A stretch of DNA of 64,000 nucleotides, taken from positions 170,252 to 234,251 of the forward strand of contig CAZULS010000002.1 in the NCBI GenBank assembly GCA_964621395.1, given 5' to 3'. This document shows positions 122 through 50,052 of the stretch, one piece after another; within the stretch, counting starts at the first letter, position 1; every line of letters starts with the position of its first letter. A program made the translations under genes and the position numbers. Under the pieces are notes generated by a model. That model was not told the origin of the DNA. It was given only the letters and a program-made list of their open reading frames with translations, and ran no database searches. Source of the DNA: an uncultured Candidatus Saccharibacteria bacterium (lineage in GTDB: Bacteria; Patescibacteriota; Minisyncoccia; Phycocordibacterales; JACNGX01).

Positions 122-173
122 GTGCGCCAAAGTTAAGCTTTGGCAGAATTGCCAAAGCTTAACTTTGGCGCAC
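122..173. repeat. 52-bp near-perfect palindromic element gcgccaaagttaagctttggc..gccaaagcttaactttggcgc (family 3), copy 1
   Basis: Seen directly. A near-identical copy lies at 24311-24364 with the central loop inverted. Confidence 0.7.
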
Positions 174-324
174 ACCCACCTCATATACCTGTCATTCCCG
201 ACTTGACCCCAAGCCACAAGCGGCGGGGCAAGTTGAGAATCTTTGTAACACCACCTCTGAAGAATGTTGGAGAAGATTCCGTATCAAGTACGGAATGACA
301 AAAGAGAGTGTGGAATGACATCAT

Positions 325-13773: not shown

Positions 13774-13850
13774 ATTTACTTTTCTTTTACGACAAAATTT
13801 ATATTCTGTCATTCTGAACTTGATTCAGAATCTAAAGTAATATTCCATTC

Positions 13851-14645: not shown

Positions 14646-14687
14646 GACGTTATTATATCATATTCTCTCATTGCTTTGCCCGAGCAC

Positions 14688-14740
14688 AACTTGTTGTGCT
14701 TTAGGGTCATTCCCGCCTCCGAGCGGGAATCTTCTCTGGT
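14688..14740. repeat. tandem REP-like palindromes: family 2 (gcccgagcacaacttgttgtgctttagggtc) fused to family 1 (gtcattcccgcctccgagcgggaatc)
   Basis: Both families recur many times in the window (see findings). Confidence 0.7.
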
Positions 14741-14824: not shown

Positions 14825-14915
14825 TATTTTTGTCATTCCTGGCTTGACCAGGAATCTAGAGTTACTATCCACGTATGTCATCCTGGATTTCTGGTCACCA
14901 GGAATGACGATTGTT
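14825..14915. repeat. two family-1 REP-like palindromes (tgtcattcctggcttgaccaggaatc ; gtcatcctggatttctggtcaccaggaatgac)
   Basis: Inverted-repeat units of 25-32 bp with a tgtcattcc..ggaatc frame. Confidence 0.65.
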
Positions 14916-15048
14916 TTTGGACAAAACCGCCGATGAGCGTGAGCTCATCGGTGGTTTATGTTTGATATTTTTCTTTTTTACGTGCCCGAGCACGACTTGT
15001 CGTGCTTTAGGGTCGTTTATAGTTTAACGTTTATCGTTCATCGTTCAC

Positions 15049-20824: not shown

Positions 20825-23800
20825 TTATGTCTTTATCACAATATTGACCAACTTTCCGGGAACCGTAATGACCTTGACAATCTCTTTGTTTTCAATGTGT
20901 TTTTGGATTTCGGGGAGTTTTTGTGCCTCCCTCTCAAGCTTATTTGGAGGTGTATCCGCACTCGTTTCAAACGTTCCTCGCACCTTGCCATTGACCTGGA
21001 CAACGATGGTAAGTGTCTCGTCGGCGAGCTTATTCTCATCATAGGAGGGCCATGGAATATCCACCACACTTCCCTCCTCTCCCAAATGCTCTCGAATCTC
21101 TTCAGCGCTATGAGGGCAAAATGGAGCAACGAGCGAGAGGAATGTGAGGTACGTTTCTTTGGAAAGTGTTGATTCTTCCTCAAGTGCATTGGCGAGAATC
21201 ATGAGGGCGGAAATTGCCGTATTGAAGCCAAAGATATCGATGTCTTCCCCCACCTTCTGTATTGTCTTGTGAAGGAGTGTTTCGGTTTTCTTTGGAAGCT
21301 CCGGCGCTTCGTCGGAAACCTTCTCAGCAAGTTTCCACACCCGCTCCACAAATCGTCGGGAGCCCATGATATTCTCCGTGCTCCACTGAGTGTCTTGATC
21401 AAATGCTCCCATAAACATCTCATACACGCGCAATGTATCAGCGCCGTATGTGTTGACGATATCATCAGGATTGATCACATTGCCAAATCGTTTACTCATC
21501 TTTCGGCCGTCTTCGCCGCCGATAAGACCCACGTGCTGGAGTCGGGCAAACGGCTCGCTCTCCGAGACCGCGCCAATATCATGAAGGAATTTATGCCAGA
21601 AACGCGCGTAGATCAAGTGCCGTGTGGCATGCTCGGCACCGCCCACATATGTGTCGACGGGTGACCAATACTTCTCCTTTTCCGGATCAACGAGCGCCGT
21701 GTCATTGTGCGGATCCATGAAGCGCAGATAATACCACGATGAGCCCGCCCACTGCGGCATGGTATTGGTTTCGCGCTTCGCCTTCCCGCCACACTTCGGG
21801 CAGGTGGTGTTGACCCATTCGACAATAGAGGCAAGCGGCGACTCTCCCGTGTCTGTCGGCTCATAGCTTTCAACCTCCGGCAATGTGAGCGGTAATTCAC
21901 TCTCGGGAATTGCCACAGCGCCACACTCTTCACAATGCACGATTGGAATCGGTTCACCCCAGTATCGCTGACGCGAAAAAACCCAGTCGCGGAGCTTGTA
22001 TGTTGTCTTGGAACGACCAACACCTTTCTCTTCCAGCCACGTGGTGATGGCAACGCGTGCCTCCGCCGATGTCATATGCGAGAATTCTCCGGCATCAACG
22101 ACCCAGCCATCGCTCGTAAAAGGAATGCGTCCATCTTTGCGTCTCTCCCATATCGGGAACTCAGCGCAGGCAAGATTCTCTCGCTTCCCTATCTCTTCCC
22201 ACGAAAGCCATGTAGGTGTGTGTTGCGCACGCTCTTCCTCATCCACCTCTTCTTGTGTGTCGTCGACGAGGGTGAAAAGCATGGCGTGCACAAACGCCAA
22301 GCGATTTTCATCCTTGTGTGCTGCAAAGAATTGATTGCGCACCGCTGATCCAAGCGAACGGACAAACTCAATATTGGTGTATCCTGTCTCTTCAATAATC
22401 TCTCTTCGTGCAGCCTCCGGCAAATCTTCCCCTTCATCAACGCCGCCGGTGATAAATGTCGTCCAATTTTGTTTTGGCCACTCCAGGCATAAATACTTGT
22501 CTGTCTTGGGATCATGAACAATGCCATGAATCATCGTACGAGCGACTGTCTCCTTTCCTTCACGAGGAGGGTTTTTCACATCGACAATATCAGGAATAAC
22601 GACATCATTGATTGGGAGGTTGTATTTTTTTGCAAAAGCAAAGTCGCGTTCATCATGTGAGGGCACTGCCATGACCGCACCGCTTCCATAATCACCAAGC
22701 ACATAATCGCCGACGAATACGGGAATATGCTCGCCGTTCGCCGGATTGATTGCTTCAATTCCTTCAATCTTCACACCGGTCTTTTCTTTCCCTTCCGCCG
22801 TGCGTTCGATTTCCGTTTTCTTTCTCGCTGTAGCGACGTAGTCGCGTATGTCGTCGTAATTCGTAATTCTTGATTCATTATTCTCAATCAGTGGATGCTC
22901 CGGCGCTACCACCGCATACGTGCATCCAAAAAGCGTGTCAGCCCGCGTGGTGAAGACGGTGAGACTGTCTGTCACTTCTCTCAGTATCTCTGGAACTTCT
23001 GGAGTCTTTTTTCCGAAATGTCCTTTATCTTCAAAAGTACAAAGTCGTGCATCAAGACCTCTTGCGTTCTCTTCTCCCGCAGAAAAAGGAACCCACTCAT
23101 CATCTTTAGAGTGAATGACGATAAATTCATTGCAGTGTTTTTTGATTTTTGAAAAATCATATCCTGTCTCCGAGAAAAATCCCTTTGATGATTTTTCTGC
23201 TTTTCCGGAATTTGTACTTACGAGTACGACTTTTGCGATTTGTTCTGAATCTTTAAGTTGCTCAAGGTACCGCATAACTGCCACGCCTCCTCGAGAGTGT
23301 CCGACGAGGATGGTGTTTGAGTCTAGTTTTAGGCTGTCTAAAACATCCAGCCATTCTTTGATATCGGGGTCTTCTGGAGACGGAAGCTCGGGAATTTCCA
23401 CCATATAGCCAAGGGACTCTAATTCTTGCGAAATCCACGGATACCATTTCTCTTTCGGAGACGTGTCTTTTCCATGCATGATAATGACACGTCTTTTTTC
23501 TTCAGAAACAATCGGAAAGTCAATTTCTGTTCCCACGCTCTTGCCGATCCAATTACGCTGGGATTCTTTAATTGATTCCGGCCAATCGAGACCTTCCAAA
23601 TCTTCGAGAAGACGGTCAGCATAATCGGTAATGCGAAGTACCCATTGGCGCATTGATTTCTTCTCGGTTTCCGTGCCGCAACGTTCACACATCGTGCCTT
23701 CGAGGTCTTCATTTGCAAGCCCTGTCTTGCACGAAGGACACCAGTTGATCGGCTCATCTGATTCATATGCGAGCCCTTTCTCAAACATTTTCAGAAATGC

Positions 23801-24238
23801 CCATTGTGTCCATTTGTAATACGCTGGATTGGTGGTGTTGATTTCACGTTCCCAATCATAGGAGAGGCCGATGATGGAGAGTTGCTTTTTATATCGCGCG
23901 ACATTCTCTTTCGTACACACTGCCGGATGGGTTTTGGTTTTCAGTGCGTAGTTTTCAGCGGGCAAGCCGAAAGCATCCCATCCCATCGGATGAAGCACAC
24001 TATATCCTTCCATTCTTTTTTTACGTGCGATTACATCGGTGGCAATATAGCCCTTCGGATGACCCACGTGAAGTCCTTGACCCGACGGATACGGAAACAT
24101 ATCCAAAATGTATGCCTTCTTGGGATTTGTGAGACTCTCGGGCGTACGATACACACCCTCCTCTGCCCATTTTTTCTGCCACTTCTTCTCAATGGATACG
24201 TGATCGTATTTCATAGGATTTGTGCACAAGCTGTACAA
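20825..24238 (-). CDS. leuS: leucyl-tRNA synthetase with inserted alpha/beta serine-hydrolase and Nudix hydrolase domains
   Basis: 1137 aa. HMGH (HVGHPKGY), KMSKS (KMSKRFGN), the LeuRS CP1 editing motifs TTRADT and GSGAVMAVPSHDERD, and the anticodon-binding domain. A hydrolase with GHSRGG is inserted at about 22970-23500. A perfect Nudix box GGVDEGEDLPEAARREIIEETGY is inserted at about 22124-22597. Confidence 0.9.
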   Translation of the reverse strand: MYSLCTNPMKYDHVSIEKKWQKKWAEEGVYRTPESLTNPKKAYILDMFPYPSGQGLHVGHPKGYIATDVIARKKRMEGYSVLHPMGWDAFGLPAENYALKTKTHPAVCTKENVARYKKQLSIIGLSYDWEREINTTNPAYYKWTQWAFLKMFEKGLAYESDEPINWCPSCKTGLANEDLEGTMCERCGTETEKKSMRQWVLRITDYADRLLEDLEGLDWPESIKESQRNWIGKSVGTEIDFPIVSEEKRRVIIMHGKDTSPKEKWYPWISQELESLGYMVEIPELPSPEDPDIKEWLDVLDSLKLDSNTILVGHSRGGVAVMRYLEQLKDSEQIAKVVLVSTNSGKAEKSSKGFFSETGYDFSKIKKHCNEFIVIHSKDDEWVPFSAGEENARGLDARLCTFEDKGHFGKKTPEVPEILREVTDSLTVFTTRADTLFGCTYAVVAPEHPLIENNESRITNYDDIRDYVATARKKTEIERTAEGKEKTGVKIEGIEAINPANGEHIPVFVGDYVLGDYGSGAVMAVPSHDERDFAFAKKYNLPINDVVIPDIVDVKNPPREGKETVARTMIHGIVHDPKTDKYLCLEWPKQNWTTFITGGVDEGEDLPEAARREIIEETGYTNIEFVRSLGSAVRNQFFAAHKDENRLAFVHAMLFTLVDDTQEEVDEEERAQHTPTWLSWEEIGKRENLACAEFPIWERRKDGRIPFTSDGWVVDAGEFSHMTSAEARVAITTWLEEKGVGRSKTTYKLRDWVFSRQRYWGEPIPIVHCEECGAVAIPESELPLTLPEVESYEPTDTGESPLASIVEWVNTTCPKCGGKAKRETNTMPQWAGSSWYYLRFMDPHNDTALVDPEKEKYWSPVDTYVGGAEHATRHLIYARFWHKFLHDIGAVSESEPFARLQHVGLIGGEDGRKMSKRFGNVINPDDIVNTYGADTLRVYEMFMGAFDQDTQWSTENIMGSRRFVERVWKLAEKVSDEAPELPKKTETLLHKTIQKVGEDIDIFGFNTAISALMILANALEEESTLSKETYLTFLSLVAPFCPHSAEEIREHLGEEGSVVDIPWPSYDENKLADETLTIVVQVNGKVRGTFETSADTPPNKLEREAQKLPEIQKHIENKEIVKVITVPGKLVNIVIKT

Positions 24239-24310: not shown

Positions 24311-24364
24311 CGCGCGCCAAAGTTAAGCTTTGGCAATTCTGCCAAAGCTTAACTTTGGCGCGCG
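24311..24364. repeat. family-3 palindromic element, copy 2
   Basis: cgcgcgccaaagttaagctttggcaattctgccaaagcttaactttggcgcgcg. Near-identical to 122-173. Confidence 0.7.
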
Positions 24365-24369
24365 GCTTT

Positions 24370-24535
24370 TCCATCCGCCCGTCATTCCGCACCACCACTC
24401 CACATGTCATCCCGCACTTGATGCGGGATCTACATGTTATGAAACAACTCTTTCGAGATCCCGCATCACCCACGCCCCAGTTTTCAAGAAAAAGGAAAAC
24501 TGAGCGGGGCAAGCGTGCGGGATGACATGGAAAGA
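24370..24535. repeat. cluster of family-1 REP-like palindromes (gtcatcccgcacttgatgcgggatc and variants)
   Basis: At least three units in 165 bp upstream of the leuS start. Confidence 0.6.
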
Positions 24536-25541: not shown

Positions 25542-25831
25542 GAAAAAGTAAAGAGGAGGGGGAGGGTCAAGAATCTGCTCTCAGCCCTTGAAACGGCGTC
25601 TTCTTACAGGCGCCGTTAGTTTTTAGATAGCCGGTATTACGTCCAGCTTTTTCTTCTGTCTCGCAAATGACGGTGTACACTAGTATGCTGTCATCCCGCA
25701 CTTGATGCGGGATCCAGGCAGAAACAAAGTGGTTCATAAACTCTGGATTCCGGCTCGGGGGCCGGAATGACAAAATATTATGGAGATTCTGAAAGACAAC
25801 GTTGGGATAACGTTGTCCCAACGTTGTCTGG

Positions 25832-29831: not shown

Positions 29832-31619
29832 TTAAACAAGAGGTTTAGAACCTGCGGTTTCGGTTGGTTTTTCCTTCCGTATGGGCAGTATACCATAGAA
29901 GATAGTGCCTGTCCCTTGCTCTGATTCAAAGCGAAGAGAGCCGCCCGCTTTCTCAATAATGGATTTGATGATATAGAGTCCAAGGCCGGTACCGGTTGTG
30001 TCCACTTCACGGGCATTGTCCGCACGAAAGAGCTTGTTGAAGATCTGCGGTTGTTGTTCTTTGGGGATACCGATACCTGAGTCGGCAACAGAGAAGAATA
30101 TATTGTCTCCTTCAGGACGAACAGACACGGTGACAACACCTCCTTCGGGAGTATACTTTACCGCATTGGAAAGAAGATTTTGAAAAATCATACGCATATG
30201 TTGCGGATCAAACCACAGTTCGGGTATATCCGGTGCATATTCTTCTTTGAGAGAAAGTTTCTTGTGGGCAATCCTCGGACGTAATTCTCCGATGACACTT
30301 TTTACAATCGGCGGTATCACAATCTTTTCCGGCTCACTGTGAACAGTGCCCATGTCGATTCGTGAGACATTGAGAAGTGAGTTCACCAAATCAATCATGC
30401 GAATATTCGCCGCATATACTTCTTCCAGGTAGGATTTTTGTGTATCGGTGATTGCGCCGCCCATACCCTCTTTGAGCATTTCCGTATACCAGCGTATCGC
30501 TGAAAGCGGCGTCCTCAGCTGGTGCGATGCCAGAGAAACGAATTCGGTTTTAGCATGATCAATCTCTTTACGCCGGGTAATGTCACCGGCAATAATAGCA
30601 AAGAACACCACCCTCCCATCGTCTATGACGGGAGACATGGATATTTCTGCCGTGTACGCCTCGTCTTTGTTATCGGCGCGAATGCCATGGAAGTCGTCGC
30701 TTACAAATGATGTTGTGTCTTTGAGCGCTTTTTTAAGCTGACGCATGTGAATACTTTGTGTGTGCTCTTCAAAAGGAGTGAAAAATTCTTTCGGAGCTTC
30801 CTTTTTTGCCATGCCGATAAGACTATACCATGCATCATTTGCGTGAACGACTTCGCCTTTCGTGTCGACGATAGTGATAGCATCGTGAGCGCTTTCCACC
30901 GCCTGTTGAAACTTTCGCGTGTTTCGTATTTCTTCTTTAATTTGCGCGTTAGCCTTTCGTAATTCATGTGTGCGTCGTTTTAATACCTCCTCAGCAATAC
31001 GAATAGGTGTCTCATCATGGCTTGAGCCGATGAGTTTGTGTGTGTTCCCTTCCACCACAACCGAGCCGTAATCACGGACATAGCGATACTCTTCCGATGT
31101 GCCCGAGCGGATACGATATTCATTTTTATACGCACGTGCTTTTGTATCGATGCCATGTCGTGCCAGACGAAGAAAAGCGTCTCTGTCATCCGGGTGCACA
31201 AGCAGTATCCATTCTTCAAGATTCTTTGGTGCGGTGGCTTCGGTGTATCCATAGAGCTCACGCCACCGCTCCGAGACATACACGGTGGCGCTTTTGCCGG
31301 AAATTGTCCATTCCCAGGTGCCCGTTTTTGAGCTCTCAAGTGCGTGGGCGTAGCGGTCGCGGCTTTCCTTGAATGCGTGGGTAATGTGCGCCGCCGCCTT
31401 GAGGCGGCGGCGCACCAACATCAAAAACACACCACCGGAGAGCGCGTACCCGATTGTTGCACCCAAAAGCACAAACGTGACAAACTCGGTTCCGGGAATA
31501 TATTGAAAAATAAACGTTGCCCCCATACACATCACAAGGACAGCTCCATACCATACGAACCAGCGTGTTGGCACGCGAAATGCGTGTGCCGTGGCATGTT
31601 TTTCAATACGTGATGTCAT
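29832..31619 (-). CDS. PAS-domain sensor histidine kinase
   Basis: 595 aa. 2 N-terminal TM helices, two PAS/PAC-like regions, HisKA (SLASHQLRTPLSAIRWYTEML) and HATPase_c (GTGLGLYIIKSIIEKAGGSLRFESEQGTGTIFY). Confidence 0.9.
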   Translation of the reverse strand: MTSRIEKHATAHAFRVPTRWFVWYGAVLVMCMGATFIFQYIPGTEFVTFVLLGATIGYALSGGVFLMLVRRRLKAAAHITHAFKESRDRYAHALESSKTGTWEWTISGKSATVYVSERWRELYGYTEATAPKNLEEWILLVHPDDRDAFLRLARHGIDTKARAYKNEYRIRSGTSEEYRYVRDYGSVVVEGNTHKLIGSSHDETPIRIAEEVLKRRTHELRKANAQIKEEIRNTRKFQQAVESAHDAITIVDTKGEVVHANDAWYSLIGMAKKEAPKEFFTPFEEHTQSIHMRQLKKALKDTTSFVSDDFHGIRADNKDEAYTAEISMSPVIDDGRVVFFAIIAGDITRRKEIDHAKTEFVSLASHQLRTPLSAIRWYTEMLKEGMGGAITDTQKSYLEEVYAANIRMIDLVNSLLNVSRIDMGTVHSEPEKIVIPPIVKSVIGELRPRIAHKKLSLKEEYAPDIPELWFDPQHMRMIFQNLLSNAVKYTPEGGVVTVSVRPEGDNIFFSVADSGIGIPKEQQPQIFNKLFRADNAREVDTTGTGLGLYIIKSIIEKAGGSLRFESEQGTGTIFYGILPIRKEKPTETAGSKPLV

Positions 31620-31727: not shown

Positions 31728-31790
31728 AGCATGACTTGCCATGCTTTAGGGCCCTGCCCGAGCACAGCTTGCTGTGCTTTAGGGTCATTC
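31728..31790. repeat. two tandem family-2 REP-like palindromes (gcccgagcatgacttgccatgctttagggcc ; gcccgagcacagcttgctgtgctttagggtc)
   Basis: Read directly. The same unit occurs at 6218, 14688, 14982, 34588, 34620, 40706 and 50025. Confidence 0.7.
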
Positions 31791-32996: not shown

Positions 32997-33155
32997 GAAT
33001 TACGAATGTACAAATCACTACAAATCTACAAATGGTACGAATAATACGAATGACGAATCGGATATTTGCTGTCATCCCGCACTTGATGCGGGATCTTCAT
33101 TATATGACCACTCTGCGAAATTTTTTCCATACCAAGGTTTAACCTTGGTATGGCA

Positions 33156-33599: not shown

Positions 33600-33733
33600 A
33601 GTGGAGCTTGTAGCTGATAGCTTTTAGCTTATAGATCGCGCACTGCGTGCGCTCCTTTTCAAAAGTGAGGTTGTCGCGACACCAAGGTTCAGCTTTGGTA
33701 TGAATACCAAAGCTGAACCTTGGTGTCGCCCAG

Positions 33734-34672: not shown

Positions 34673-35395
34673 CTATTTCCTCTCTGCAAAAATATCCAGT
34701 ACGTCACGTGCGGAGTCCTCCCCTACCTTTTTCTCAAAGAATTTCAATTCATCAAACTTTCTAAGCAAGATAAAGACAAAAATGATTGAACTCGCAAAAG
34801 CTCCCTTGAGGATGGAACTATAGACAAGCTCTTGAGATGGAATGATAGAAAGTGTGAGAAAAAGAATGGTGCCGAGGAAGTACATAAGCATCCACTGAAA
34901 GCGCGGCACTCGTTCGTAGTAGAGTGCAATCATGCTTTTGCGAATACTTTGGAGATCTTTGAGAGCATAGAGAATACGCTGAACGGAAAACGCAGCCACA
35001 GTTGGTAATTGCTCTCCCCCAAGCTTCTCTTCAATGAGAGTGTGTAGAGATGTAATGGTTTCAGATTTATGAGTGACATGGTAATCCCATGCATGGTTGG
35101 AGAGAATTGTCTCATAGTGTGCCGTGATAATCTGTTTTGATTTTGCTTGCACGTCAGTTCCTAAATGTCCGCATAACCGATAAATACCTGAAAGAGTCCC
35201 GTCAAAAGACGTGACGCGGTCGCGGATGGCGCTGTAACGATTACCTTGGCGCGCAATGAAAAATCCGGTGAAGATAGAGAAAAGGAATGTTGAAATCGTG
35301 AGAAGAATTTCGTAGTGCGCGATATGCCCGAAAGGCTGCACATAATACACAACAGACAAGACAGGAAAAATGAGGAAAGAAAGATAGTGTGCCAT
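34673..35395 (-). CDS. hypothetical membrane protein
   Basis: About 240 aa with N- and C-terminal TM helices. No family recognised. Confidence 0.45.
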   Translation of the reverse strand: MAHYLSFLIFPVLSVVYYVQPFGHIAHYEILLTISTFLFSIFTGFFIARQGNRYSAIRDRVTSFDGTLSGIYRLCGHLGTDVQAKSKQIITAHYETILSNHAWDYHVTHKSETITSLHTLIEEKLGGEQLPTVAAFSVQRILYALKDLQSIRKSMIALYYERVPRFQWMLMYFLGTILFLTLSIIPSQELVYSSILKGAFASSIIFVFILLRKFDELKFFEKKVGEDSARDVLDIFAERK

Positions 35396-35436
35396 ATAGC
35401 GTATAGTATAACACGGCAATAAGTCAGTATGTGTAT

Positions 35437-36021
35437 TTATACGATACCAAGTGCCAGATTAAGATACCGATACAGAAAGATACAGAGGACGACGAGTGCA
35501 ATGACCACGAAGAAAGCGAGGACAGTGAGGTTGTTTCCGGTTTGCTTTGCACCTTTTGCATTGGTATGGACGACCCCCACCTCATCTTCTTCTTCAGGAG
35601 TCCAACCGTGTGATGGTGGATGAATGGTCTCCTGCTCTCTGGCGGACGCTGAAGGAGGAAGCTCGCTCCCAACCTTTACGGTGTCGGGAATGTGTTGCGG
35701 AGCACCTTCAGGCATGCCGGGCGCGCGATATGCTCCTTTTTCAGGCTCACTCTGCTCTACCTCAGGAGATGTTTCTTCTCTTCGTGATTCTGGTGCGGGA
35801 GTAGAGTTTGTGGGAGGTATAGTATCGGCGCGCGCTTCGCGCGCGCCTTCTTCGACCGATTCTGTCTTGGCAGGATGTAGGTCTTCGACCGACCAAGCAT
35901 CACCCTCGCCGTCAGGCGAAAGTGATGCTTGGTTCAGGTCCTCGACCGATTTCGCTTCAGTATCACTATCCCCCTCATCAGGCCAAAACCGATTCGGATT
36001 GTTGGAAGTATTTTCATCCAT
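35437..36021 (-). CDS. acidic low-complexity protein with C-terminal TM anchor; contains palindrome-encoded SVEDL(H/N)P repeats
   Basis: 194 aa, a D/E/P-rich tail-anchored protein. The repeats SVEDLNQASLSPDGEGDAWSVEDLHPAKTE are encoded by nested DNA palindromes. Confidence 0.5.
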   Translation of the reverse strand: MDENTSNNPNRFWPDEGDSDTEAKSVEDLNQASLSPDGEGDAWSVEDLHPAKTESVEEGAREARADTIPPTNSTPAPESRREETSPEVEQSEPEKGAYRAPGMPEGAPQHIPDTVKVGSELPPSASAREQETIHPPSHGWTPEEEDEVGVVHTNAKGAKQTGNNLTVLAFFVVIALVVLCIFLYRYLNLALGIV

Positions 36022-36536
36022 ATATACAAGTATATCACGGAAAAACTTTATCTGTCATTGCAAATAAAATTATTTTCTGTCATTCCCGCCTCCGAGCGGG
36101 AATCTACAAAGTCGTATAGCCAACCTGCGTTTCTTCACAAATCTTCACACATTCTCGCTATGCGAAACTCAACTCCCTATAAAAACAAACACCCTATACC
36201 TGGTTGGTATAGGGCACCCTTTCCAAAGGTTAAACCTTTGGAAAGCCTGTATACCAAGGTTAAACCTTGGTATAGATGAGGGGTGTGCTGAAAACACACA
36301 GCGGCGCCAAAGGCACCGCTGTGTGTTTTGTTTGATTTTGTCATTCCGTACTTGATACGGAATCTTCCCAAACAATTTCTAAAAATAAGATAGAGGAGAT
36401 TCTGAATCGCCAGAGCCCCACTTTCACCAACAAGCGTTTTCAGTAAAATACTCTCTTTTTTCTTCTATCGTTTCTCCTTTCTTGCTTATTCAGTGAAAGT
36501 GAAGCTCGGCAAGAGTTCAGAATGACAGGGAGATAA

Positions 36537-38129
36537 TTATTCCTCTCCCTGTATATTAGGTTGGTTTTGAGACATGGTACCCTCTCCTTTCTTATCCAAT
36601 TTGCGCTTGATGCACCAAATGATGAGCACGAGCAATAGAATCGCGAGCGGAATAATCGGACAGAAGATGCCAAAGAGATAGAGGATAAAGATTGCGATAA
36701 CGTCACACAGAATCCAGAGACGCAAATCTTCTTCCCTACTCACCTCGTAGCCATGCTTTTCTCGCCATGCCCGATACAATCGCCAAATGATTGCAATGAT
36801 AACAAGAACGAGGATAAACCAGAATGCGCACATGGCAAGTTCGGCAAAGCTTGCCGGCAAAAATCCAAGACCTGCCGGAAGGAGTCCGTTGCCGTCGTCT
36901 TTCAGAAGCTCTTCCTCCTCGCCTCCACCACCTGGAAGGACGTTTTCTTGTGAGGGAGGTGTATAGGTTCCGCCACCCACTGTGCCTCCATCGGCAAGTG
37001 GTCCGCCTGTTCCTCCCTCGGCCGATCCTGCTTCAGCAGGATTTAGGCCTCCTCCATCATCACTCGGTCCGCTTTCGTCTCCATAGGGAATGGTAAATTC
37101 ATGCTGATAGCTTACAGTCGCCGGCGAAGCGTGCGAAACCACACGATACACATACGTGCCGCCCACTTCCAAACCGGTAAGGGTGACTTCATGGTGTGTG
37201 ACCAACGTTGGGTCTTCTGTCGTGGCGTGCGGATACCCAAAATTCGGCTGTGTGAGGTTGATACTGTATGGATAGCCTGCCGCGGGATTACCGTCGCCAT
37301 GAGTCTTGAGTCCGTAAATAACCTGACTGGTCGCCGGCTCAAGTGCACCGTTGCGGTATGTTTCCCATCGAATAATTGCTTCACCACTTGCATCACCGAT
37401 TGCCGTCGGCGACGGTGTGCTCAAGTCGGCAACTCGCTCATTGGCGATAGTAAGCGGCGAGCTCTCAATAATACCGCCACCACCTCCACCGGAGCCGCCT
37501 CCTCCACCTCCGTTTCCGCCGCATGAGCCACAGTCGGAAGGACAAATTTCGCACGATTCATCGCCGTTACACGTGCCATCACCGCAGTACGGATCCTCTC
37601 CGTCGCTGATTTGCGTACCGCAGACATAGCCATTAGGGTCTTCAAAGCCGACACAAATATCAAACGACAAGCTCTTTTCCTGCATGTCATTACCGGTCAA
37701 TTCTTCGAAAGAAACCGTATAGGTATAGATAATTGTTTGACCAGGGTCAATATCGCCGAGCGACACTTCGCCGTCATCAAGGAAATTGCCAAAGAAGTCG
37801 TTGTACCACTCTATACTCGTCACATTATCGGTAATCACCAGCGTCATGTGATCACCTAAGCCGTCAGGATCGGATTCGAAGATGGTATCGGTGTGTACGG
37901 TTTCCGTCTCACTGCCATTGTTGGTCACATGCGCCGTACCCACGGCAGTATCGCCGGGGAGAAAATTGGTTTCGCCAAACATGGCCGTTGAGGATGCCAC
38001 GCCATTGAAAAGCACCTCAAGATTTCCATTTGCATGTGCGGTGGAAGACCCAACAAACAGTCCCATCGCCATAACGGTGAAGAGCAGTCCTCCGAGAAGC
38101 GTATTGTGCATGAATGTATTCATAGTCAT
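36537..38129 (-). CDS. secreted surface protein with Cys-rich knot, poly-Gly linker, beta-rich domain and C-terminal TM/Cys-rich tail
   Basis: 530 aa. An N-terminal signal/TM segment, CGDGTCNGDESCEICPSDCGSCGGNGGGGGGSGGGGGG, and the in-frame palindromic repeat GGLNPAEAGSAEGG. Confidence 0.6.
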   Translation of the reverse strand: MTMNTFMHNTLLGGLLFTVMAMGLFVGSSTAHANGNLEVLFNGVASSTAMFGETNFLPGDTAVGTAHVTNNGSETETVHTDTIFESDPDGLGDHMTLVITDNVTSIEWYNDFFGNFLDDGEVSLGDIDPGQTIIYTYTVSFEELTGNDMQEKSLSFDICVGFEDPNGYVCGTQISDGEDPYCGDGTCNGDESCEICPSDCGSCGGNGGGGGGSGGGGGGIIESSPLTIANERVADLSTPSPTAIGDASGEAIIRWETYRNGALEPATSQVIYGLKTHGDGNPAAGYPYSINLTQPNFGYPHATTEDPTLVTHHEVTLTGLEVGGTYVYRVVSHASPATVSYQHEFTIPYGDESGPSDDGGGLNPAEAGSAEGGTGGPLADGGTVGGGTYTPPSQENVLPGGGGEEEELLKDDGNGLLPAGLGFLPASFAELAMCAFWFILVLVIIAIIWRLYRAWREKHGYEVSREEDLRLWILCDVIAIFILYLFGIFCPIIPLAILLLVLIIWCIKRKLDKKGEGTMSQNQPNIQGEE

Positions 38130-38134
38130 GGTAT

Positions 38135-40609
38135 TTAGGCGGTCTCTTCGCCGTTATCTGATAATGTGTCATCTTCGACAGAAGTGTCCGGCTCGTTTCC
38201 GGTGTCGGAATCACTCTCATGTTCTGAAGAGTCGCCTGATTCTTCATGTGTTTCTTGAGAAGTATCATCTTCGGTGGGCGGTACATCTTCTGTTGTTTGG
38301 GCATCATGCTGATCTTCCAGAGGTGTGTCCTCTTCTCGCAGTGCTTCTTGCTCATCTTCCTCTACGGCAGAACCGGGCATCTCTTCTTCACTTTCTTCTT
38401 CGACCGATCCCGCTTCAGCATCGCTTGAATCTTCTTCCTCCGTATTCTCGGAAACTGTCTCCTCAGAGCCTTGTGTTTCGACATCCTCAGACTCGTCAGA
38501 AGCGGCAGTATCCGTGCCCTGTTCTTCACTCTCGGCCGATTCGCCCGACTCTGATTCCTCATCTTGAGAAGCTGTTTCGTCGTTCTCCTCGCCAACTTCA
38601 TCTTCCTCGACCAATCCTGCTTCAGCAGGACTGAGGTCTTCACCGTCTTCATCTCCTTCGCCCGATTCTGACGCATCACCTTCTTCATTGTCCTCATTAT
38701 TTTCAGAAGCCGTCGCGCTACCGTCATCAGCTGCTCCATCCTCAGCACCCGCGCCATCACTATCATCACCGGAATCCGAAGCACCGTCAGTACCATCGTC
38801 ACCGAGCATCATCGTATCACCTGATTCAACATCCGAACCCTCGGCCGATCCAGCTTCAGCTGGATGTAGGCTTTCCTCAGGCACAATCTCAATCGCCGGC
38901 ACCGCATAGGAAGCTGCATCCGGCACCTCTTCCCCTTCGTAGACAACCACAAGTCGTGTACCTGTGAGCTCATACCCGTCTGCCTCCGCTGTGTACACAA
39001 TCTCGTATACCCCCGCCACAGCGGTATCAACAGTTCCTTCCGTGTGCACGCTCATATCAGCACCCGAAGCATTCAAAACGCGCGCACCCATATCGCTATA
39101 CGAAGAACCAAGTGCCACAAGAGCCGGATTGTTGCCCACAATCTCCATTTCCGGCATCGGCTCATCCTCCGCCGGCACCGGCGTCATAAGCGGCTCGTCC
39201 ATCATCGCTTCAATCGGGAACGGATCCCATACACGACCACTAAAGGTAAAGGCATGTACCATTGGATTTTCCGGTCCGTATGCCACAAGTTTAATCCAGA
39301 TATTACCCACAAATCCGCTTGGCACCGTCCAGTCGTATTCTCCGGTATTACCAATACCCGTTGCAATCACGTGCTCGGTATCACCGTCGTCAATCACTTC
39401 ATCAGCATTGATATCGCGAATGTACGAAAGATCAATAGAGAGATCTCCGTCAGGACCGTTGTGGTTCTCTGCATTCCATTCAATGGTATAGGTGTATGTC
39501 CAGTACCATGTTTGTGAATTGTCGTTTTCATCGGGATTGAGCATATCCACGCTCGGCGGAAGAAGCTCACTCCAGTCCGCAGGTGTGTCGGTGTCGGTTC
39601 CCGAAGGATTACGCGCAAGCATGCCGCCCTCTTGCACAAGAGGTGCAGCCGGATCCCATACCGCCGTGTCGTCTCCCCAACCCACAGCATCAATCACCAC
39701 ACCATCGGGGCGCTTCAAAAGCAAATGGTCGCCATCGTTTGCCAAACCGCCACCGATTGCATTGTCGTCAATCTCAATCTTCACCACCTCATCCGGAATA
39801 TTCCAATAATCCCATGTCGTGCTCGTTGCTGAAATCACCGCATATCCGCCGGCGGGAATTGCCGGCGTGGACGTTGGCATAACATCACATGATGTATTAT
39901 CACACAGTTCCCACTCGGCAAATTCAAGCGGTACATCCGTCTGATTGAAAATCTCTATCCATTCATTCGCCGGCTCACTGCCGAGAGACGGCGCAACATC
40001 ATAATACACCTTATTGATACGCAATCCCCATGAGCTAATGGTATTTTCCACCTTTTCTGTATCGTAATATCCACCGAGCATGTATCCCGGCAGTTCCTTT
40101 TGCCAACCGTCGTACACAATATCAAACGAGCAAATCTTATTCTGATGATTTACCGGCGACGTGAGTGTGTAGTGCCAGGTGCCGAGGGTGTCTGCATCCG
40201 GTGCACTGGAAAACGCGGTAAGCGCACCATTATAGTATGTAGTCGAATCGTATTCGGCTTTAATATTCAAATCGTCACAGTAGTCGACATCGCCCGCCAT
40301 ATTATCAGCATGAGCGACGTAGTAAAAATCAGTACTGGTGCCTTCGTCGATAATTTCAATGTCTCGAAAACCGGTATTGCCGTAGAAAAGGTCTGCCTCC
40401 GATTCCGGCGGAGTCCAACTCGTCGGCTCCAAACGAAAGTCCAGCATATGCGCCGCAAAAAGATTGCCGTCTGAGCGTTCGGTATCGTTGTAGTAGCCAA
40501 ACGTCTCACCCACCGCCGAGAGCCCGGCGGCATTCATGCCCACAACAAGAAACACGGCGACGATGCGTCGAATTGCTTCTTGAATGTATTGTTCGTTAAG
40601 ACGAGTCAT
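38135..40609 (-). CDS. SipW-cognate (TasA/camelysin-like N-terminus) surface protein with lamin-tail domain and long acidic C-terminal tail
   Basis: 824 aa. The N-terminus GETFGYYNDTERSDGNLFAA parallels the AFFSDTETSTGNTFTAG motif of SipW-cognate proteins. An LTD-like segment is present (NEWIEIFNQTDVPLEFAEWELCD..AIPAGGYAVIS). The C-terminal 260 aa are D/E/S-rich with LHPAEAG / LSPAEAG / SDAEAG repeats. Confidence 0.7.
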   Translation of the reverse strand: MTRLNEQYIQEAIRRIVAVFLVVGMNAAGLSAVGETFGYYNDTERSDGNLFAAHMLDFRLEPTSWTPPESEADLFYGNTGFRDIEIIDEGTSTDFYYVAHADNMAGDVDYCDDLNIKAEYDSTTYYNGALTAFSSAPDADTLGTWHYTLTSPVNHQNKICSFDIVYDGWQKELPGYMLGGYYDTEKVENTISSWGLRINKVYYDVAPSLGSEPANEWIEIFNQTDVPLEFAEWELCDNTSCDVMPTSTPAIPAGGYAVISATSTTWDYWNIPDEVVKIEIDDNAIGGGLANDGDHLLLKRPDGVVIDAVGWGDDTAVWDPAAPLVQEGGMLARNPSGTDTDTPADWSELLPPSVDMLNPDENDNSQTWYWTYTYTIEWNAENHNGPDGDLSIDLSYIRDINADEVIDDGDTEHVIATGIGNTGEYDWTVPSGFVGNIWIKLVAYGPENPMVHAFTFSGRVWDPFPIEAMMDEPLMTPVPAEDEPMPEMEIVGNNPALVALGSSYSDMGARVLNASGADMSVHTEGTVDTAVAGVYEIVYTAEADGYELTGTRLVVVYEGEEVPDAASYAVPAIEIVPEESLHPAEAGSAEGSDVESGDTMMLGDDGTDGASDSGDDSDGAGAEDGAADDGSATASENNEDNEEGDASESGEGDEDGEDLSPAEAGLVEEDEVGEENDETASQDEESESGESAESEEQGTDTAASDESEDVETQGSEETVSENTEEEDSSDAEAGSVEEESEEEMPGSAVEEDEQEALREEDTPLEDQHDAQTTEDVPPTEDDTSQETHEESGDSSEHESDSDTGNEPDTSVEDDTLSDNGEETA

Positions 40610-40785
40610 GTACCTAGGAAATTAGGAGATTAATAAGTTAGGAGGTTAGTATTCGCGCGCTAACGCGCGCTCCTCATATTCACCAAAGCAAACGGCTAAT
40701 TCAAGCTTTGCCCGAGCACAGCTTGCTGTGCTTTAGGGTCATTTTTTGTTTGGTTTTTGATATTTTTCTTTTTATCGTTCATCGT

Positions 40786-41367
40786 TTATAGTTTATCGTT
40801 TACAGAGTCAGCGTGTCCTTCACTATCTATTTCTCCACCACCATCCTCTTTCTTACCACGCCCCTTCCGCACCTCCTTAATTATCTTCCACACCTCATCC
40901 ACAATAATCGCCCCCGCGGGAATCACAATAAGGAGAAAGAATCCAATCGGTTTTTTCGCAAAATCAATAATATATCCAAGATAGGGAATGGAAAACAGCA
41001 CCTTTCCAATCACTTCCCCTTCACCAACCTCGCGCACATCCGGATCTTCATTGGCATCTCCCTTCGTTTGAAAGAGCGTCTGTCCCGCTTCGACACGCAT
41101 GTCAACAATACGGTGCGTCGTTGGAACCTTCTCACGTGTGTCTTCGCCGAATGTGATAATGTCGTCGATGGCATACATGCTCTGCGGCAAAATGACAGCC
41201 AAACTCCCCGTGTGAATTGCCGGCTCCATCGAACCCGACGACACAATCTTCACCTGGACATTCCCCTTCATCGGAATGAGCGAGAAGACAAGAATGGCGG
41301 CGATGCAGAGAACGGCAGCCGTAAACGCATAATATGCGATTTTCCAGATGGTATTGATGAGGTTCAT
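40786..41367 (-). CDS. sipW: signal peptidase I, SipW-type (archaeal/eukaryotic-like S26B)
   Basis: 193 aa. N-terminal TM, the catalytic Ser box VSSGSMEPAIHTGSLAVI, His in TTHRIVD, and a C-terminal TM. It is adjacent to three SipW-cognate proteins. Confidence 0.8.
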   Translation of the reverse strand: MNLINTIWKIAYYAFTAAVLCIAAILVFSLIPMKGNVQVKIVSSGSMEPAIHTGSLAVILPQSMYAIDDIITFGEDTREKVPTTHRIVDMRVEAGQTLFQTKGDANEDPDVREVGEGEVIGKVLFSIPYLGYIIDFAKKPIGFFLLIVIPAGAIIVDEVWKIIKEVRKGRGKKEDGGGEIDSEGHADSVNDKL

Positions 41368-41571
41368 ACTCTATATAGCTGTCATTCTGGCCTCCGAGCC
41401 GGAATCTTCGCTATTGCGGACGATTACACCAGTTTTTAGTTGTTAGTTTGTAGTTTTTAGTCCGCGCACTTCGTGCGCTCCTCCACACCCTCTTTTGTCA
41501 TTCCCGACTTGATCGGGAATCTTCGCGATACCAAAGTTAAACATTTGTATCGCCTTCCAACCGACGCCCTA

Positions 41572-43172: not shown

Positions 43173-43240
43173 CCGTACTCTTGCCGAGCACTTTTTTCGC
43201 TTTAGCGAAAATGGTGCTTGGTGATACAGAATCTTCGTAG
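43173..43240. repeat. family-5 nested palindrome (about 68 bp), copy 1 (inverted relative to copies 2 and 3)
   Basis: tgtcatcccgtactcttgccgagcacttttttcgctttagcgaaaatggtgcttggtgatacagaatc. Copies are at 45690-45757 and 52315-52384. Confidence 0.65.
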
Positions 43241-43386
43241 ATCCTGAATCAAGTTCAGGATAACGAGTTTATCGTTTACCGTTTATAGTTTATCGTTTAC
43301 AAAATCAGCCACACCCAACTCATTTATCTGTCAAAACCCCGAAGGGCAACACCACAATCGCTCACGCGATTGTGGTGTTTGAAAGA

Positions 43387-44802: not shown

Positions 44803-45689
44803 AAATAATCAGTAGAACAGTAATCAGTATGTCGGGATATGAGTATGTATAGAGGATAAAAAAAGTTATCCACAGTTCTTTCCAAAGGTTTAACCTTTGG
44901 AAAACAATATATCTATTCCGACATATCCGAATACTGCAATGAATAAACGAATAAGAAGTATATTTTGAGCGGAGCACAAAAAAACTCTCCACCCGAAATA
45001 CGCTTACAAAGCTGATAAAAAGTGAAAGAGCCAAAGGATCTATGCTGCTATTATATTTTTGTGAGCGCGCGGAAAGTGTTTGTACGTTCGCTGTATTTCG
45101 CACTCGGTAGAACCGAAGACATTCGCCTCGACTCGACCGAGCACGAACATATGGATGTGTTCGCGCACCACATGTTCTCAATTCAAAGTAATGTTTTTCA
45201 GTATCCGAATCGTTTCTCCCCTGCACATAATTGTACTCCTCAGAGAAAAGTGATTCAAATGAAAATAAAGTTGGGAAAGGAAACGGACGGTTCGTCAATC
45301 TCCATGTGACGAAGGATTGAGACGGTATGCCTGACATTGCGTGTCGCGGGTTACCCGACCGCTTGTGTTTTGGCACTGTCTTGAACCGCCTGTATCTTCC
45401 TTCCCCAACATTAAAAAAGAGTCTACTTCCCATACTCTACCCCTCCCGCATATTGTCAAGACCCAAAACAAAGCCCAACATGTCCTTTATGATGTGTCAA
45501 TCTGTTGCCTAAAGGACACCCAAAAAACCCTGCAAAAGAAAGCCCAAAATCCCCTGTCCCTTACATGTCCGATAGAACATATCAAAATACAAAAATAAAA
45601 TATCAAACAAAAACGTAATCCGAAATCTCGCAGACAAAACCAAAGACTATCTTTGGTATGCATACCAAAGATAGTCTTTGGTTTTGTAA

Positions 45690-46774: not shown

Positions 46775-47031
46775 ATACCGTATATTATAGTCTTTTTCAC
46801 GATTATGTCAATAATAATCGTGAAAAAACACGTTTTTTACCACTTTTTAACGATTATTTTTCTGATATTTTCTGTACCAAGGTTGAACCTTGGTACACCA
46901 CATAATATCAAGCTGTCAAGCAAAAGGACGGCTCCTTCGGAGCCGCCCTACGCGCCCTTGACTTTTCACTGCAGAAAGTCCATCCTTGTGAAAGATTGAC
47001 TTTGATAAAAAACACTTCAAAGGAGGCGATA

Positions 47032-49751: not shown

Positions 49752-50052
49752 CCGAGAACACCGGAGCGTACAGCAGTATTGTACGACTCCGGTTTGTTGT
49801 TTCCGCGGCCGAGCATCCTTATACCAAGGTTCAACCTTGGTATAAGGATGCTATTATGATTATAGCCTTATATTACAATGGTTTTATACTTACCTATACC
49901 AAGGTTGAACCTTGGTATAGATACTTGTGTCAAGAGAAAGCGCGGCGTATGCCGCGCTTTCTATTTCTATCTCCTATAGCTTTTATCGTTAATAGTTCAG
50001 CGTTTTACTGTGGCCGAGCATGCTCGCCATGCTTTAGGCCCGTTCACCAAGA

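What the first reader, a model, noticed from the sequence alone, without database searches (positions are those of the whole stretch)
35855..38880. In-frame palindromic DNA repeats encoding a recurring (E/D)xL(N/H/S)PAEAG peptide inside several surface-protein genes
The same imperfect DNA palindrome, atcc(t/a)gcttcagc(a/t)ggat plus flanks, occurs inside coding sequence at about 37015-37050 (GGGLNPAEAGSAEGG), 38385-38420 (SDAEAGSVEE), 38605-38640 (EDLSPAEAGLVEE) and 38835-38875 (ESLHPAEAGSAEG). A degenerate tandem pair is at 35855-35960 (SVEDLNQASLSPDGEGDAWSVEDLHPAKTE), and there the arms gaaccaagcatcac/gtgatgcttggtc form a nested palindrome. Each copy is in frame and sits in a low-complexity linker. 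This resembles Rickettsia palindromic elements (RPEs), which insert into ORFs without disrupting them. Given the many other palindromic repeat families in this window, it may be the coding-region face of the same mobile-palindrome phenomenon.
Basis: seen in the sequence. Interest (0 to 1): 0.6.

Follow-up and report, generated by a model that had tools for sequence, protein, structure and literature searches.

The report
In-frame hairpin repeat in surface-protein linkers
A 30-base hairpin-forming DNA unit has been copied, in frame, into the floppy linker regions of three neighbouring envelope-protein genes of one uncultivated Parcubacteria bacterium; the recurring "PAEAG" peptide is simply what the hairpin spells when translated.

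Summary
A discrete 30-33 nt unit (sense strand G[G/A]CC-tNa-ATCCTGC-TGAA-GCAGGAT-c-GG[C/T]C-GAG) occurs as four full copies and two or three short or odd copies. All lie in three adjacent minus-strand genes of a SipW cluster (35437-40609). There are none in the other ~59 kb of the window.

It is a derived DNA insertion. In the 530-aa gene it is a clean 30-nt indel, and five orthologues lack it. No related locus or public collection scan found it.

Copying was at the DNA level: boundaries are sharp and the rare Leu codon CTA is shared. Later substitutions keep the hairpin (two compensatory pairs) but not the peptide (pN/pS 0.4-1.4).

The motif is not a protein family. A profile search of 1.84 billion proteins returned five hits, none a plausible relative. 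The one whose DNA I examined is a translated CRISPR array.

It is RPE-like and REP-like in behaviour. It is not a member of RPE or GTAG-REP, nor of the window's extragenic TGTCATTCC...GGAATC hairpin family (7.8 bits, E = 6.8).

Genome-wide mobility is not shown, and the spread looks local. It is a modestly interesting new variant of a known kind.

The parts
38840..38872 (-). Full copy D in the P3 tail: AGCCTACATCCAGCTGAAGCTGGATCGGCCGAG, translated SLHPAEAGSAE. Inner stem pair 5 is A-T rather than T-A, a compensatory change at two synonymous sites.
38606..38638 (-). Full copy C in the P3 tail: GACCTCAGTCCTGCTGAAGCAGGATTGGTCGAG, translated DLSPAEAGLVE. The outer stem is GACC/GGTC, compensatory relative to GGCC/GGCC in copy A, and both changes are nonsynonymous. 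There is one G.U pair in the sense strand.
38396..38428 (-). Short-type copy B in the P3 tail: right half only, GCTGAAGCGGGATCGGTCGAAGA, translated (SS)DAEAGSVEE. The left arm is absent.
37017..37049 (-). Full copy A in the Gly-rich linker of P2: GGCCTAAATCCTGCTGAAGCAGGATCGGCCGAG, translated GLNPAEAGSAE. This is a clean 30-nt insertion relative to L020 and to four further orthologues.
35851..35883 (-). Degenerate full copy P1b: GACCTACATCCTGCCAAGACAGAATCGGTCGAA, translated DLHPAKTESVE. The outer stem is intact. The inner stem pairs only with G.T wobbles, and only on the + strand.
35884..35940 (-). Unit P1a. It has the same flanks (GACC tga ... c GGTC GAA), but the inner stem is ACCAAGCATCAC/GTGATGCTTGGT. 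That stem extends to 18-20 bp with G.U around a segment (SLSPDGEGD) that aligns with STEPAGDGD in L020.
35939..35967 (-). Short-type copy P1c: ACTGAAGCGAAATCGGTCGAGGA, translated (DSD)TEAKSVED. It is 83% identical to copy B.
35437..36021 (-). Host gene P1: 194 aa, acidic N-terminal region and a C-terminal TM anchor. Orthologues are in L020 (7515-8087) and L024 (14301-14780).
36537..38129 (-). Host gene P2: 530 aa, with a signal peptide, an FN3/Pur_ac_phosph_N-like domain, a Gly-rich linker and C-terminal TM segments.
38135..40609 (-). Host gene P3: 824 aa, with a SipW-type signal, a lamin-tail domain, an Ig-like domain and an acidic tail of about 250 aa. It is identical to P0001 (Parcubacteria).

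Best explanation
This is a young, lineage-specific DNA repeat. The unit is a 30-nt hairpin running from outer stem to outer stem, plus a following GAR codon. It has been copied at the nucleotide level, always in the same frame and orientation, into linker or tail-coding DNA of three consecutive envelope-protein genes. That DNA appears disordered, judged from composition. The spread covers about 3 kb.

The peptide (E/D)xLxPAEAG(S/L)xE is a passenger. CCn-GCn-GAR-GCn-GGn is intrinsically a CCnGC/GCnGG hairpin, so any such palindrome read in that frame spells PAEAG. The insertions are tolerated because 30 nt is 10 codons, the encoded peptide is small and hydrophilic, and the sites are low-complexity spacers.

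After copying, the two arms change together, so what is preserved or repeatedly restored is base pairing, not amino-acid sequence. Older copies (P1b, B, P1c) decay in both palindrome and peptide, which argues for no durable function.

Shown here: the unit is discrete, it is an insertion relative to orthologues, it was copied as DNA, its substitutions preserve structure, and it is absent elsewhere.

Inferred: the copying engine. My preferred reading is local templated copying or short-patch conversion between GA/GG-rich linkers. Hairpin-driven template switching and arm-to-arm correction would then explain the compensatory changes and the palindromised P1a unit. A transposase with local hopping is not excluded.
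For: 1. Recurrence far above chance, confined to three adjacent genes.
2. Sharp boundaries: core identity 67-88%, flanks 25-50%.
3. A clean 30-nt insertion in P2, absent from five orthologues. P1 has extra segments. The P3 orthologues at 77% and 59% identity lack the motif. No related locus has a match within 10 of 33 mismatches.
4. Copying was at the DNA level. Three of the four full copies use CTA, which is 15 of 974 Leu codons in the window's genes, and the Pro codons used (CCT, CCA) are also the rarer ones.
5. The hairpin is more stable than the peptide requires. In synonymous-codon resampling, the fraction of resamples at least as stable as observed was 0.004, 0.012 and 0.065 for A, C and D.
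6. There are nine substitutions among A, C and D: two compensatory pairs (four changes), one G.U, one terminal mismatch and three in the internal loop. P(at most 1 broken pair) is about 0.006.
7. pN/pS among copies is 0.4-1.4, so there is no clear purifying selection on the peptide, although counts are tiny.
8. The motif profile searched against 1.84 billion proteins gave five hits. None looks like a relative of these proteins by inspection of their sequences. The one examined at DNA level, P0215, is a translated CRISPR array whose 29-nt repeat GGGCTCATCCCCGCGGAGGCGGGGAGCAC reads LIPAEAGST.
9. The same lineage keeps other in-frame perfect hairpins through compensatory, residue-changing substitutions, for example in the kinase gene, window versus L020.
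Against: - Only one genome carries the element. The rest of its 295-kb contig and genome could not be searched, so genome-wide copies cannot be excluded.
- The sample is very small (three good copies), and the statistics are post hoc.
- Direct-orientation copy-paste of a 30-nt unit over 0.2-1.4 kb by template switching is, to my knowledge, not a well-documented bacterial mechanism.
- Every copy shares one frame and orientation. That would also be expected if a peptide were selected.
- The P3 tail alignments are too poor to show clean indels there.
- No strand preference emerges from the wobble pairs. Copies C and P1a favour the sense strand and P1b the antisense. RNA-level and DNA-level pairing therefore cannot be separated.
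Confidence: 0.55

Rival explanations
1. It is a genuine non-autonomous mobile palindrome, a REP or mini-RPE. A tyrosine (HUH/RAYT or IS200-like) or other transposase encoded elsewhere in the genome moves it. The copies here are the ones that survived because they landed in frame in linkers.
For: - The unit is discrete, has REP size and sharp ends, and the insert runs exactly from outer stem to outer stem.
- Presence and absence differ among orthologues.
- Two of four full copies have GTAG next to the hairpin on the + strand.
- The genome is rich in other palindromic repeats.
- Intragenic REPs and in-frame RPEs are documented (PMC3733652, PMC10969869).
Against: - No copies lie in the other ~59 kb, including roughly 10 kb of spacer DNA where 15 of 15 copies of the extragenic family sit.
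- All copies share one frame and one orientation.
- No transposase was found among about 38 scanned window proteins.
- GTDB, JGI and IMG/VR scans gave no hits.
- GTAG lies 3' of the hairpin, not 5' as in GTAG-REPs.
Confidence: 0.2
2. It is a functional mRNA structure. The hairpins would be selected in the transcript of this operon, for example to slow ribosomes between domains during secretion or membrane insertion, or to block exonucleases. The peptide would be incidental.
For: - Sense-strand RNA hairpins of -14.5 to -18.5 kcal/mol exceed the synonymous-codon expectation.
- Copy C has a G.U pair and P1a has two, all in the sense strand.
- The P1 5' coding region folds at -75.9 kcal/mol with z = -6.1.
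- Other in-frame hairpins are conserved across species, in the kinase gene and at GAREARA in P1.
Against: - All orthologues lack the hairpins and evidently manage without them.
- Older copies have decayed (P1b, B).
- P1b pairs better on the antisense strand.
- The hairpins have no consistent position relative to domains or TM segments.
- There is no Rfam match in the window other than a tRNA.
Confidence: 0.15
3. It is a protein-level motif, such as a processing, glycosylation or binding site. It would have spread by duplication among co-functioning SipW-cluster surface proteins and be kept by selection on the peptide. The palindrome would be a by-product of the P-A-E-A-G codons.
For: - PAEAG is invariant in the three good copies.
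- All copies share one frame and sit in related, co-located envelope proteins.
- The peptide alone already encodes a hairpin averaging about -9.8 kcal/mol.
Against: - Every orthologue examined lacks it.
- No real protein among 1.84 billion representatives carries it repeatedly.
- The flanking residues vary (G/D/S, N/S/H, S/L, A/V) in exactly the ways that keep base pairs.
- pN/pS is 0.4-1.4.
- The rare CTA codon is retained.
- P1 has no signal peptide by inspection, so its copies may lie in a different compartment. This is an inference.
Confidence: 0.08
4. It is a chance similarity within low-complexity acidic or glycine-rich coding DNA, or an assembly artefact.
For: The host regions are compositionally biased, and MAG assemblies can be chimeric.
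Against: - None of 100 shuffles reach the observed matches.
- The core is 67-88% identical against flanks of 25-50%.
- The sequence in an independent Logan contig is identical.
Confidence: 0.02

Closest known systems
Rickettsia palindromic elements (RPE)
   Same: Both are palindromic repeats found in frame inside ORFs. Both encode a recurring peptide that the host protein tolerates, and both show presence/absence differences among orthologues (PMC10969869, PMC3733652).
   Different: Per PMC10969869, RPEs are about 150 bp, fall into ten families, and integrated 44 times into unrelated genes of R. conorii, nearly half of them in ORFs. This unit is 30-33 nt with 4-7 copies, all within about 3 kb in three adjacent genes. 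None is extragenic and none is found in any other genome. The taxa are unrelated (Parcubacteria).
REPs, including intragenic GTAG/CGTC-tagged REPs (Di Nocera et al. 2013, PMC3733652)
   Same: Both are stem-loop repeats of 20-40 nt whose arms vary in a compensatory way. REPs lying wholly inside ORFs have been reported.
   Different: There is no 5' GTAG or CGTC tag; GTAG appears in 2 of 4 copies but on the 3' side. The copy number is low, and the element is never extragenic. No RAYT was seen in the window.
The window's own extragenic hairpin family TGTCAT[TC]C[CT]NNN-CTTGA-NNN[AG]G[AG]ATC
   Same: The stem starts in a similar way (ATCCT...AGGAT), the loop is 4-5 nt, and the arms covary. It occurs in the same genome.
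   Different: The flanks and loop differ, and the unit is 3 nt shorter. Covariance model R1 scores true members at 19-51 bits (14 of the 15 above 38) but copy A at 7.8 bits (E = 6.8), no better than palindrome-only antisense hits. That family is 15 of 15 extragenic and is shared with L020 and L024. The in-frame element is 0 of 7 extragenic and private to this genome.
Quasipalindrome template-switch mutagenesis (known from E. coli and phage T4 genetics; cited from my own knowledge)
   Same: The mechanism explains arms that become or stay perfectly complementary through paired changes without selection. It also explains growth of a palindrome around a pre-existing centre, as in P1a.
   Different: It produces inverted, local corrections. 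It does not obviously explain direct-orientation copies 0.2-1.4 kb apart.
[quoted passage not shown]
   Same: Both are intragenic repeats with dyad-symmetric coding DNA in surface or membrane proteins.
   Different: PARCELs are 25-residue amphipathic domains in tandem arrays, spread by HGT across many taxa. Here the unit is a 10-11-residue hydrophilic insert, dispersed rather than tandem, in a single genome.
CRISPR repeats read as protein
   Same: A CCCCGC-GGAG-GCGGGG repeat translates to LIPAEAGST. This shows that PAEAG is the generic reading of this type of palindrome.
   Different: There is no regular repeat-spacer array here. The copies sit inside genes that are conserved in related genomes.

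Membership tests
Rickettsia palindromic elements (RPE) | Length about 100-150 bp | tested here: not met
   The unit is 30-33 nt with sharp boundaries.
Rickettsia palindromic elements (RPE) | In-frame insertion in ORFs, encoding a recurring peptide, absent from orthologues | tested here: met
Rickettsia palindromic elements (RPE) | Many copies dispersed through unrelated genes and spacers | tested here: not met
   Within the 64 kb available, all copies lie in three adjacent genes. The rest of the genome could not be searched.
GTAG/CGTC-tagged REP (RAYT-associated) | Imperfect palindrome of 20-40 nt | tested here: met
   The outer stem is 3-4 bp (3 bp in copy D) and the inner stem 7 bp. RNA MFE is -14.5 to -18.5 kcal/mol and DNA MFE is -6.5 to -9.4.
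GTAG/CGTC-tagged REP (RAYT-associated) | Conserved GTAG or CGTC tetranucleotide at the 5' end of the stem-loop | tested here: not met
   On the + strand the tag follows the hairpin: GTAG in copies D and P1b, TTAG in A, and no tetranucleotide in register in C, where GGAC is followed by TGAG. On the sense strand it reads CTAC.
GTAG/CGTC-tagged REP (RAYT-associated) | High copy number, predominantly extragenic | tested here: not met
   None of 7 copies is extragenic, and there are none elsewhere in the window.
GTAG/CGTC-tagged REP (RAYT-associated) | Cognate RAYT / Y1 transposase in the genome | not testable with these tools
   None among about 38 window proteins scanned against Pfam.
Window's extragenic TGTCATTCC...GGAATC hairpin family | Significant score against the family covariance model (sequence, flanks and 8-bp stem) | tested here: not met
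   Against R1, 15 members have E < 1e-3. Copy A scores 7.8 bits (E = 6.8), and copies C and D are not listed.
Conserved protein motif or sorting signal | Same peptide at the same position in orthologues | tested here: not met
   Absent from P0002, P0003 and P0097-P0101.
Conserved protein motif or sorting signal | Recurrence in other, unrelated proteins | tested here: not met
   The profile search of 1.84 billion representatives gave five hits, none resembling these proteins. The one examined at DNA level is a translated CRISPR array. Single-copy occurrences would fall below the E-value cut-off.
CRISPR array | Regularly spaced identical repeats with unique spacers | tested here: not met
   Spacings are 34, 57, 1166, 1382, 207 and 234 nt, inside conserved ORFs.
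PARCEL | Tandem 25-residue amphipathic repeats | tested here: not met
   The units are 10-11 residues, hydrophilic, and dispersed.

The most novel reading that the evidence does not exclude
This Parcubacteria lineage actively maintains perfect palindromes inside coding DNA by concerted evolution of the two arms, even at the cost of amino-acid changes. Examples are the 13-bp hairpin in the sensor-kinase gene, the GAREARA hairpin, and P1a. One such coding hairpin has become a 30-nt, frame-neutral, locally mobile 'coding REP' that builds new linker peptides in surface proteins. That would be a miniature, mechanistically distinct counterpart of Rickettsia RPEs in a CPR bacterium.
Probability: 0.25. 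Interest if true: 0.6.

Novelty: new variant of a known kind. Interest (0 to 1): 0.38.

Why it matters
If the reading is right, this is a compact, datable example of new peptide segments entering surface proteins as a side effect of DNA-level hairpin dynamics, in a reduced-genome CPR bacterium. It extends the RPE and intragenic-REP phenomenon to a much smaller unit and to a new phylum.

There are also practical cautions. PAEAG-like peptide motifs can be pure translations of palindromes; the same peptide turns up in a mistranslated CRISPR array. Compensatory changes inside coding DNA need not mean that a functional RNA is present.

Tried and rejected
1. The GTDB genome scan with CTNNNNCCNGCNGARGCNGGNTYGGYCGA gave 19 single chance hits in high-GC, unrelated genomes. 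The source genome is not in that collection.
2. The JGI metagenome scan and the IMG/VR scan gave only chance hits in DNA of 58-67% GC.
3. A word-indexed protein search with a concatenated motif query found 2 candidates and nothing scored. That search was wasted.
4. I tried to walk along the contig from the window's end genes. Only short Logan contigs were returned, adding about 3 kb, with no further copy.
5. I tested whether the in-frame unit belongs to the extragenic TGTCATTCC family. The covariance model rejects this.
6. I looked for a target-site duplication. The flanks are GAA/GGA-rich low complexity, so nothing convincing emerged.
7. I looked for a strand preference from wobble pairs, to separate RNA-level from DNA-level pairing. 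The copies contradict each other.
8. The Rfam scan of the window found only one tRNA.
9. I looked for lineage-specific hairpin inserts in the same linkers of relatives L020, L024, L032, L034 and L035 and found none.


Full report
**Context.** The window is a chromosomal stretch of an uncultivated Parcubacteria (CPR) bacterium. The 824-aa protein is identical to P0001, which comes from a 294,908-bp contig, and its nearest named relatives are annotated Parcubacteria group bacterium.

The finding lies in three consecutive minus-strand genes downstream of a SipW signal peptidase (40786-41367) and two SipW-signal proteins:
- P3 (38135-40609): SipW-type signal, lamin-tail domain, Ig-like domain, and an acidic tail of about 250 aa.
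- P2 (36537-38129): signal peptide, FN3/Pur_ac_phosph_N-like domain, Gly-rich linker and C-terminal TM segments.
- P1 (35437-36021): acidic N-terminal region and a C-terminal TM anchor.

The gene order SipW-P3-P2-P1-DUF389 is conserved in two related genomes: L020 (GCA_014383885.1) and L024 (a TARA scaffold).

- The 18-nt core matches at 37025-37042, 38614-38631 and 38848-38865 with 0-2 mismatches. The chance expectation is 0.02.
- The fully codon-degenerate pattern for P-A-E-A-G hits only these three sites.
- A six-frame peptide scan finds the motif nowhere else in the window.
- Repeat finding and a right-half pattern add the copy at 38396-38428 and a further one at 35939-35967.
- The degenerate pair in P1 is confirmed. 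It includes a perfect 12-bp stem at 35892-35933.

**Anatomy.** Read on the coding strand, the full unit is G(G/A)CC - tNa - ATCCTGC - TGAA - GCAGGAT - c/t - GG(C/T)C - GAG.
- It has an outer 4-bp stem, a 3-nt/1-nt internal loop, a 7-bp inner stem and a tetraloop. That is 30 nt, or 10 codons, followed by a Glu codon.
- RNA folding energies are -18.5 (A), -17.0 (C) and -14.5 (D) kcal/mol.
- DNA energies are -6.5 to -9.4 kcal/mol on either strand.
- Identity between copies is 67-88% inside the 33 nt and falls to 25-50% immediately outside. The unit is therefore discrete, not part of a longer duplication.
- Two copies (B and P1c) carry only the right half. P1b is a full-length copy with a decayed centre.
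- P1a has the same flanks but a different and much longer inner stem.

**Insertion or conserved motif?** It is an insertion.
- In P2 the codon alignment with L020 shows ...GGA GGA [30 nt] GAG GGA GGA... against ...GGT GGA GGC GAT GGA..., a clean 10-codon indel.
- The four other closest P2 homologues (P0098-P0101) also lack it.
- P1 has two extra segments relative to L020 and L024.
- The P3 orthologues, at 77% and 59% identity, have no copy, although their tails are too diverged for clean indels.
- No related locus contains anything within 10 of 33 mismatches.
- Scans of GTDB genomes, JGI metagenomes and IMG/VR returned only chance matches in high-GC DNA.
- An independent Logan contig is identical to the window over its whole length: P3 and the part of P2 it holds, covering copies A-D.

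**DNA or peptide?** Six lines point to DNA.
1. Three of the four full copies use CTA for Leu. CTA is the rarest Leu codon here (15 of 974), and the Pro codons used are also the rarer ones. The copies therefore descend from one nucleotide sequence and are not convergent peptides.
2. P-A-E-A-G intrinsically encodes four of five stem pairs, yet the observed hairpins are more stable than codon-resampled versions of the same peptides. The fraction at least as stable as observed was 0.004, 0.012 and 0.065.
3. There are nine substitutions among A, C and D.
   - Four form two compensatory pairs. One is at two synonymous third positions (CCT/GCA to CCA/GCT). The other changes two residues (Gly to Asp together with Ala to Val).
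   - One gives a G.U pair, one breaks a terminal pair, and three fall in the 4-nt internal loop.
   - Random placement gives at most one broken pair with P of about 0.006.
4. pN/pS among copies is 0.4-1.4, from tiny counts.
5. A profile of the five peptide copies, searched against 1.84 billion representative proteins, gave five hits.
   - All five are short-period repeat proteins that bear no resemblance to P1-P3.
   - I examined the DNA of one, P0215. It is a 61-nt-period CRISPR array whose repeat GGGCTCATCCCCGCGGAGGCGGGGAGCAC reads LIPAEAGST.
   - PAEAG is thus the generic translation of this kind of palindrome and not a protein family.
6. The older copies have lost both palindrome and peptide.

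**Is it a mobile element of a known family?** It behaves like an RPE or an intragenic REP. It is in frame, tolerated, and shows presence/absence differences among orthologues. It fails the defining features of both families.
- It is 30 nt rather than about 150 bp.
- There is no 5' GTAG or CGTC tag.
- The copy number is low, and it is never extragenic.
- No transposase is among the roughly 38 window proteins scanned.

The window does contain a genuine REP-like extragenic family, TGTCAT[TC]C[CT]NNN-CTTGA-NNN[AG]G[AG]ATC.
- It has 15 copies, all in spacers.
- It is shared with L020 and L024.
- Its cells are 98.9% paired. Five of eight pairs change on both sides, and there are no wobble pairs.
- The in-frame unit superficially resembles it (ATCCTGC...GCAGGAT), but the family's covariance model gives copy A only 7.8 bits (E = 6.8). 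That is no better than palindrome-only antisense hits.

The idea that the in-frame repeat is the coding face of that family is therefore rejected.

The distribution is also telling. There are seven copies in about 3 kb of coding DNA and none in the other roughly 59 kb, including about 10 kb of spacers. A freely transposing element would not be expected to show that pattern.

**How it most likely works.** I conclude that this is a young hairpin repeat that spreads by a DNA-level copy process acting locally.
- It persists where a 10-codon hydrophilic insert is harmless, and it then decays.
- The coupled arm changes, and the P1a unit, fit hairpin-mediated template switching or arm-to-arm correction. 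In P1a, complementarity has grown to 18-20 bp around a segment that is not palindromic in L020.
- That mechanism is an inference. It does not by itself explain direct copies hundreds of bases apart.
- A transposase with local hopping remains a live rival, as does selection for an mRNA structure.
- Wobble pairs give no consistent strand preference.

**Related observation.** The lineage keeps other in-frame perfect hairpins.
- The sensor-kinase gene has a 13-bp perfect hairpin at 31386-31415 (VRRRLKAAAH).
- Its L020 orthologue is also a perfect 13-bp hairpin, but with three compensatory pair changes that alter four residues.
- A GC-only hairpin encoding GAREARA (35827-35847) is kept in L020 and L024, in shifted registers.

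These make the nucleic-acid-level reading more credible and deserve their own follow-up.

**Verdict.** The RPE-like interpretation is right about insertion and DNA-level constraint. It is unsupported for genome-wide mobility and for kinship with the extragenic palindromes. This is a new variant of a known kind, of modest interest.

Noticed in passing
window 31386-31415 (in gene 29832-31619, minus strand); L020 10925-10954: A perfect 13-bp in-frame hairpin sits just after the TM region of a PAS/HisKA sensor kinase (VRRRLKAAAH). The L020 orthologue is also a perfect 13-bp hairpin, but with three compensatory pair changes that alter four residues. L024 has only about 6 bp and L032 has none.
   Followed up: partly
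window 35827-35847 (in P1); L020 ~7608-7640; L024 14366-14394: A GC-only in-frame hairpin GGCGCGCGC-GAA-GCGCGCGCC (GAREARA) lies immediately 3' of the P1 repeat copies. A hairpin is kept at this position in both orthologues: 10 bp with one G.T in L020, and 11 bp in another register in L024.
   Followed up: partly
window 268-304, 2437-2473, 13803-13839, 14701-14738, 14827-14863, 14879-14913, 24401-24437, 25685-25721, 25739-25776, 33066-33102, 36074-36111, 36335-36371, 41376-41413, 41492-41528, 43233-43269: An extragenic REP-like hairpin family, TGTCAT[TC]C[CT]NNN-CTTGA-NNN[AG]G[AG]ATC(T/C), often followed by TAC, so the antisense reads GTAG-hairpin-GACA. It has 15 copies, all in spacers. Covariation is strong with no wobble pairs. 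It is shared with L020 (10 copies in 16 kb) and L024.
   Followed up: yes
window 122-173, 24311-24364, 33676-33729, 45634-45687; 33127-33153, 36219-36274, 44879-44903, 46873-46897, 49812-49920; 14683-14700, 14989-15006, 31761-31778, 40715-40732: Further spacer palindrome families are present. They include 22-25-bp perfect hairpins built on CCAAAG..CTTTGG, an ACCAAGGT-TNA-ACCTTGGT family, and a short AGCAC(A/G)(A/G)-CTTG hairpin family that is also present in L020.
   Followed up: no
window 36022-36536: The P2-P1 spacer is 515 nt here and packed with at least 6 hairpins from several families. In L020 it is 152 nt. The spacer has apparently been expanded by accumulation of palindromic repeats.
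   Followed up: no
window 20825-24238: The leucyl-tRNA synthetase ORF is 1137 aa, with Pfam Ser_hydrolase (residues 251-410) and NUDIX (588-687) domains embedded in the synthetase.
   Followed up: no
window 34673-35419: A bestrophin-like gene lies between P1 and the DUF389 gene here. It is absent at that position in L020 and L024.
   Followed up: no
L020 5500-5560 (P3 tail of the sister genome): The L020 tail contains GAA AAT CCA GCT GAA GCT CCA (ENPAEAP). It shares 14 consecutive bases with copy D but does not form the hairpin. It could be a relic of the kind of sequence from which the unit arose.
   Followed up: no
L037 (ENA scaffold; protein P0215): A 512-aa predicted protein in the public protein set is a translated type I-E-like CRISPR array: a 29-nt repeat present 26 times with a 61-nt period. 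It is an annotation artefact that surfaces in motif searches.
   Followed up: yes
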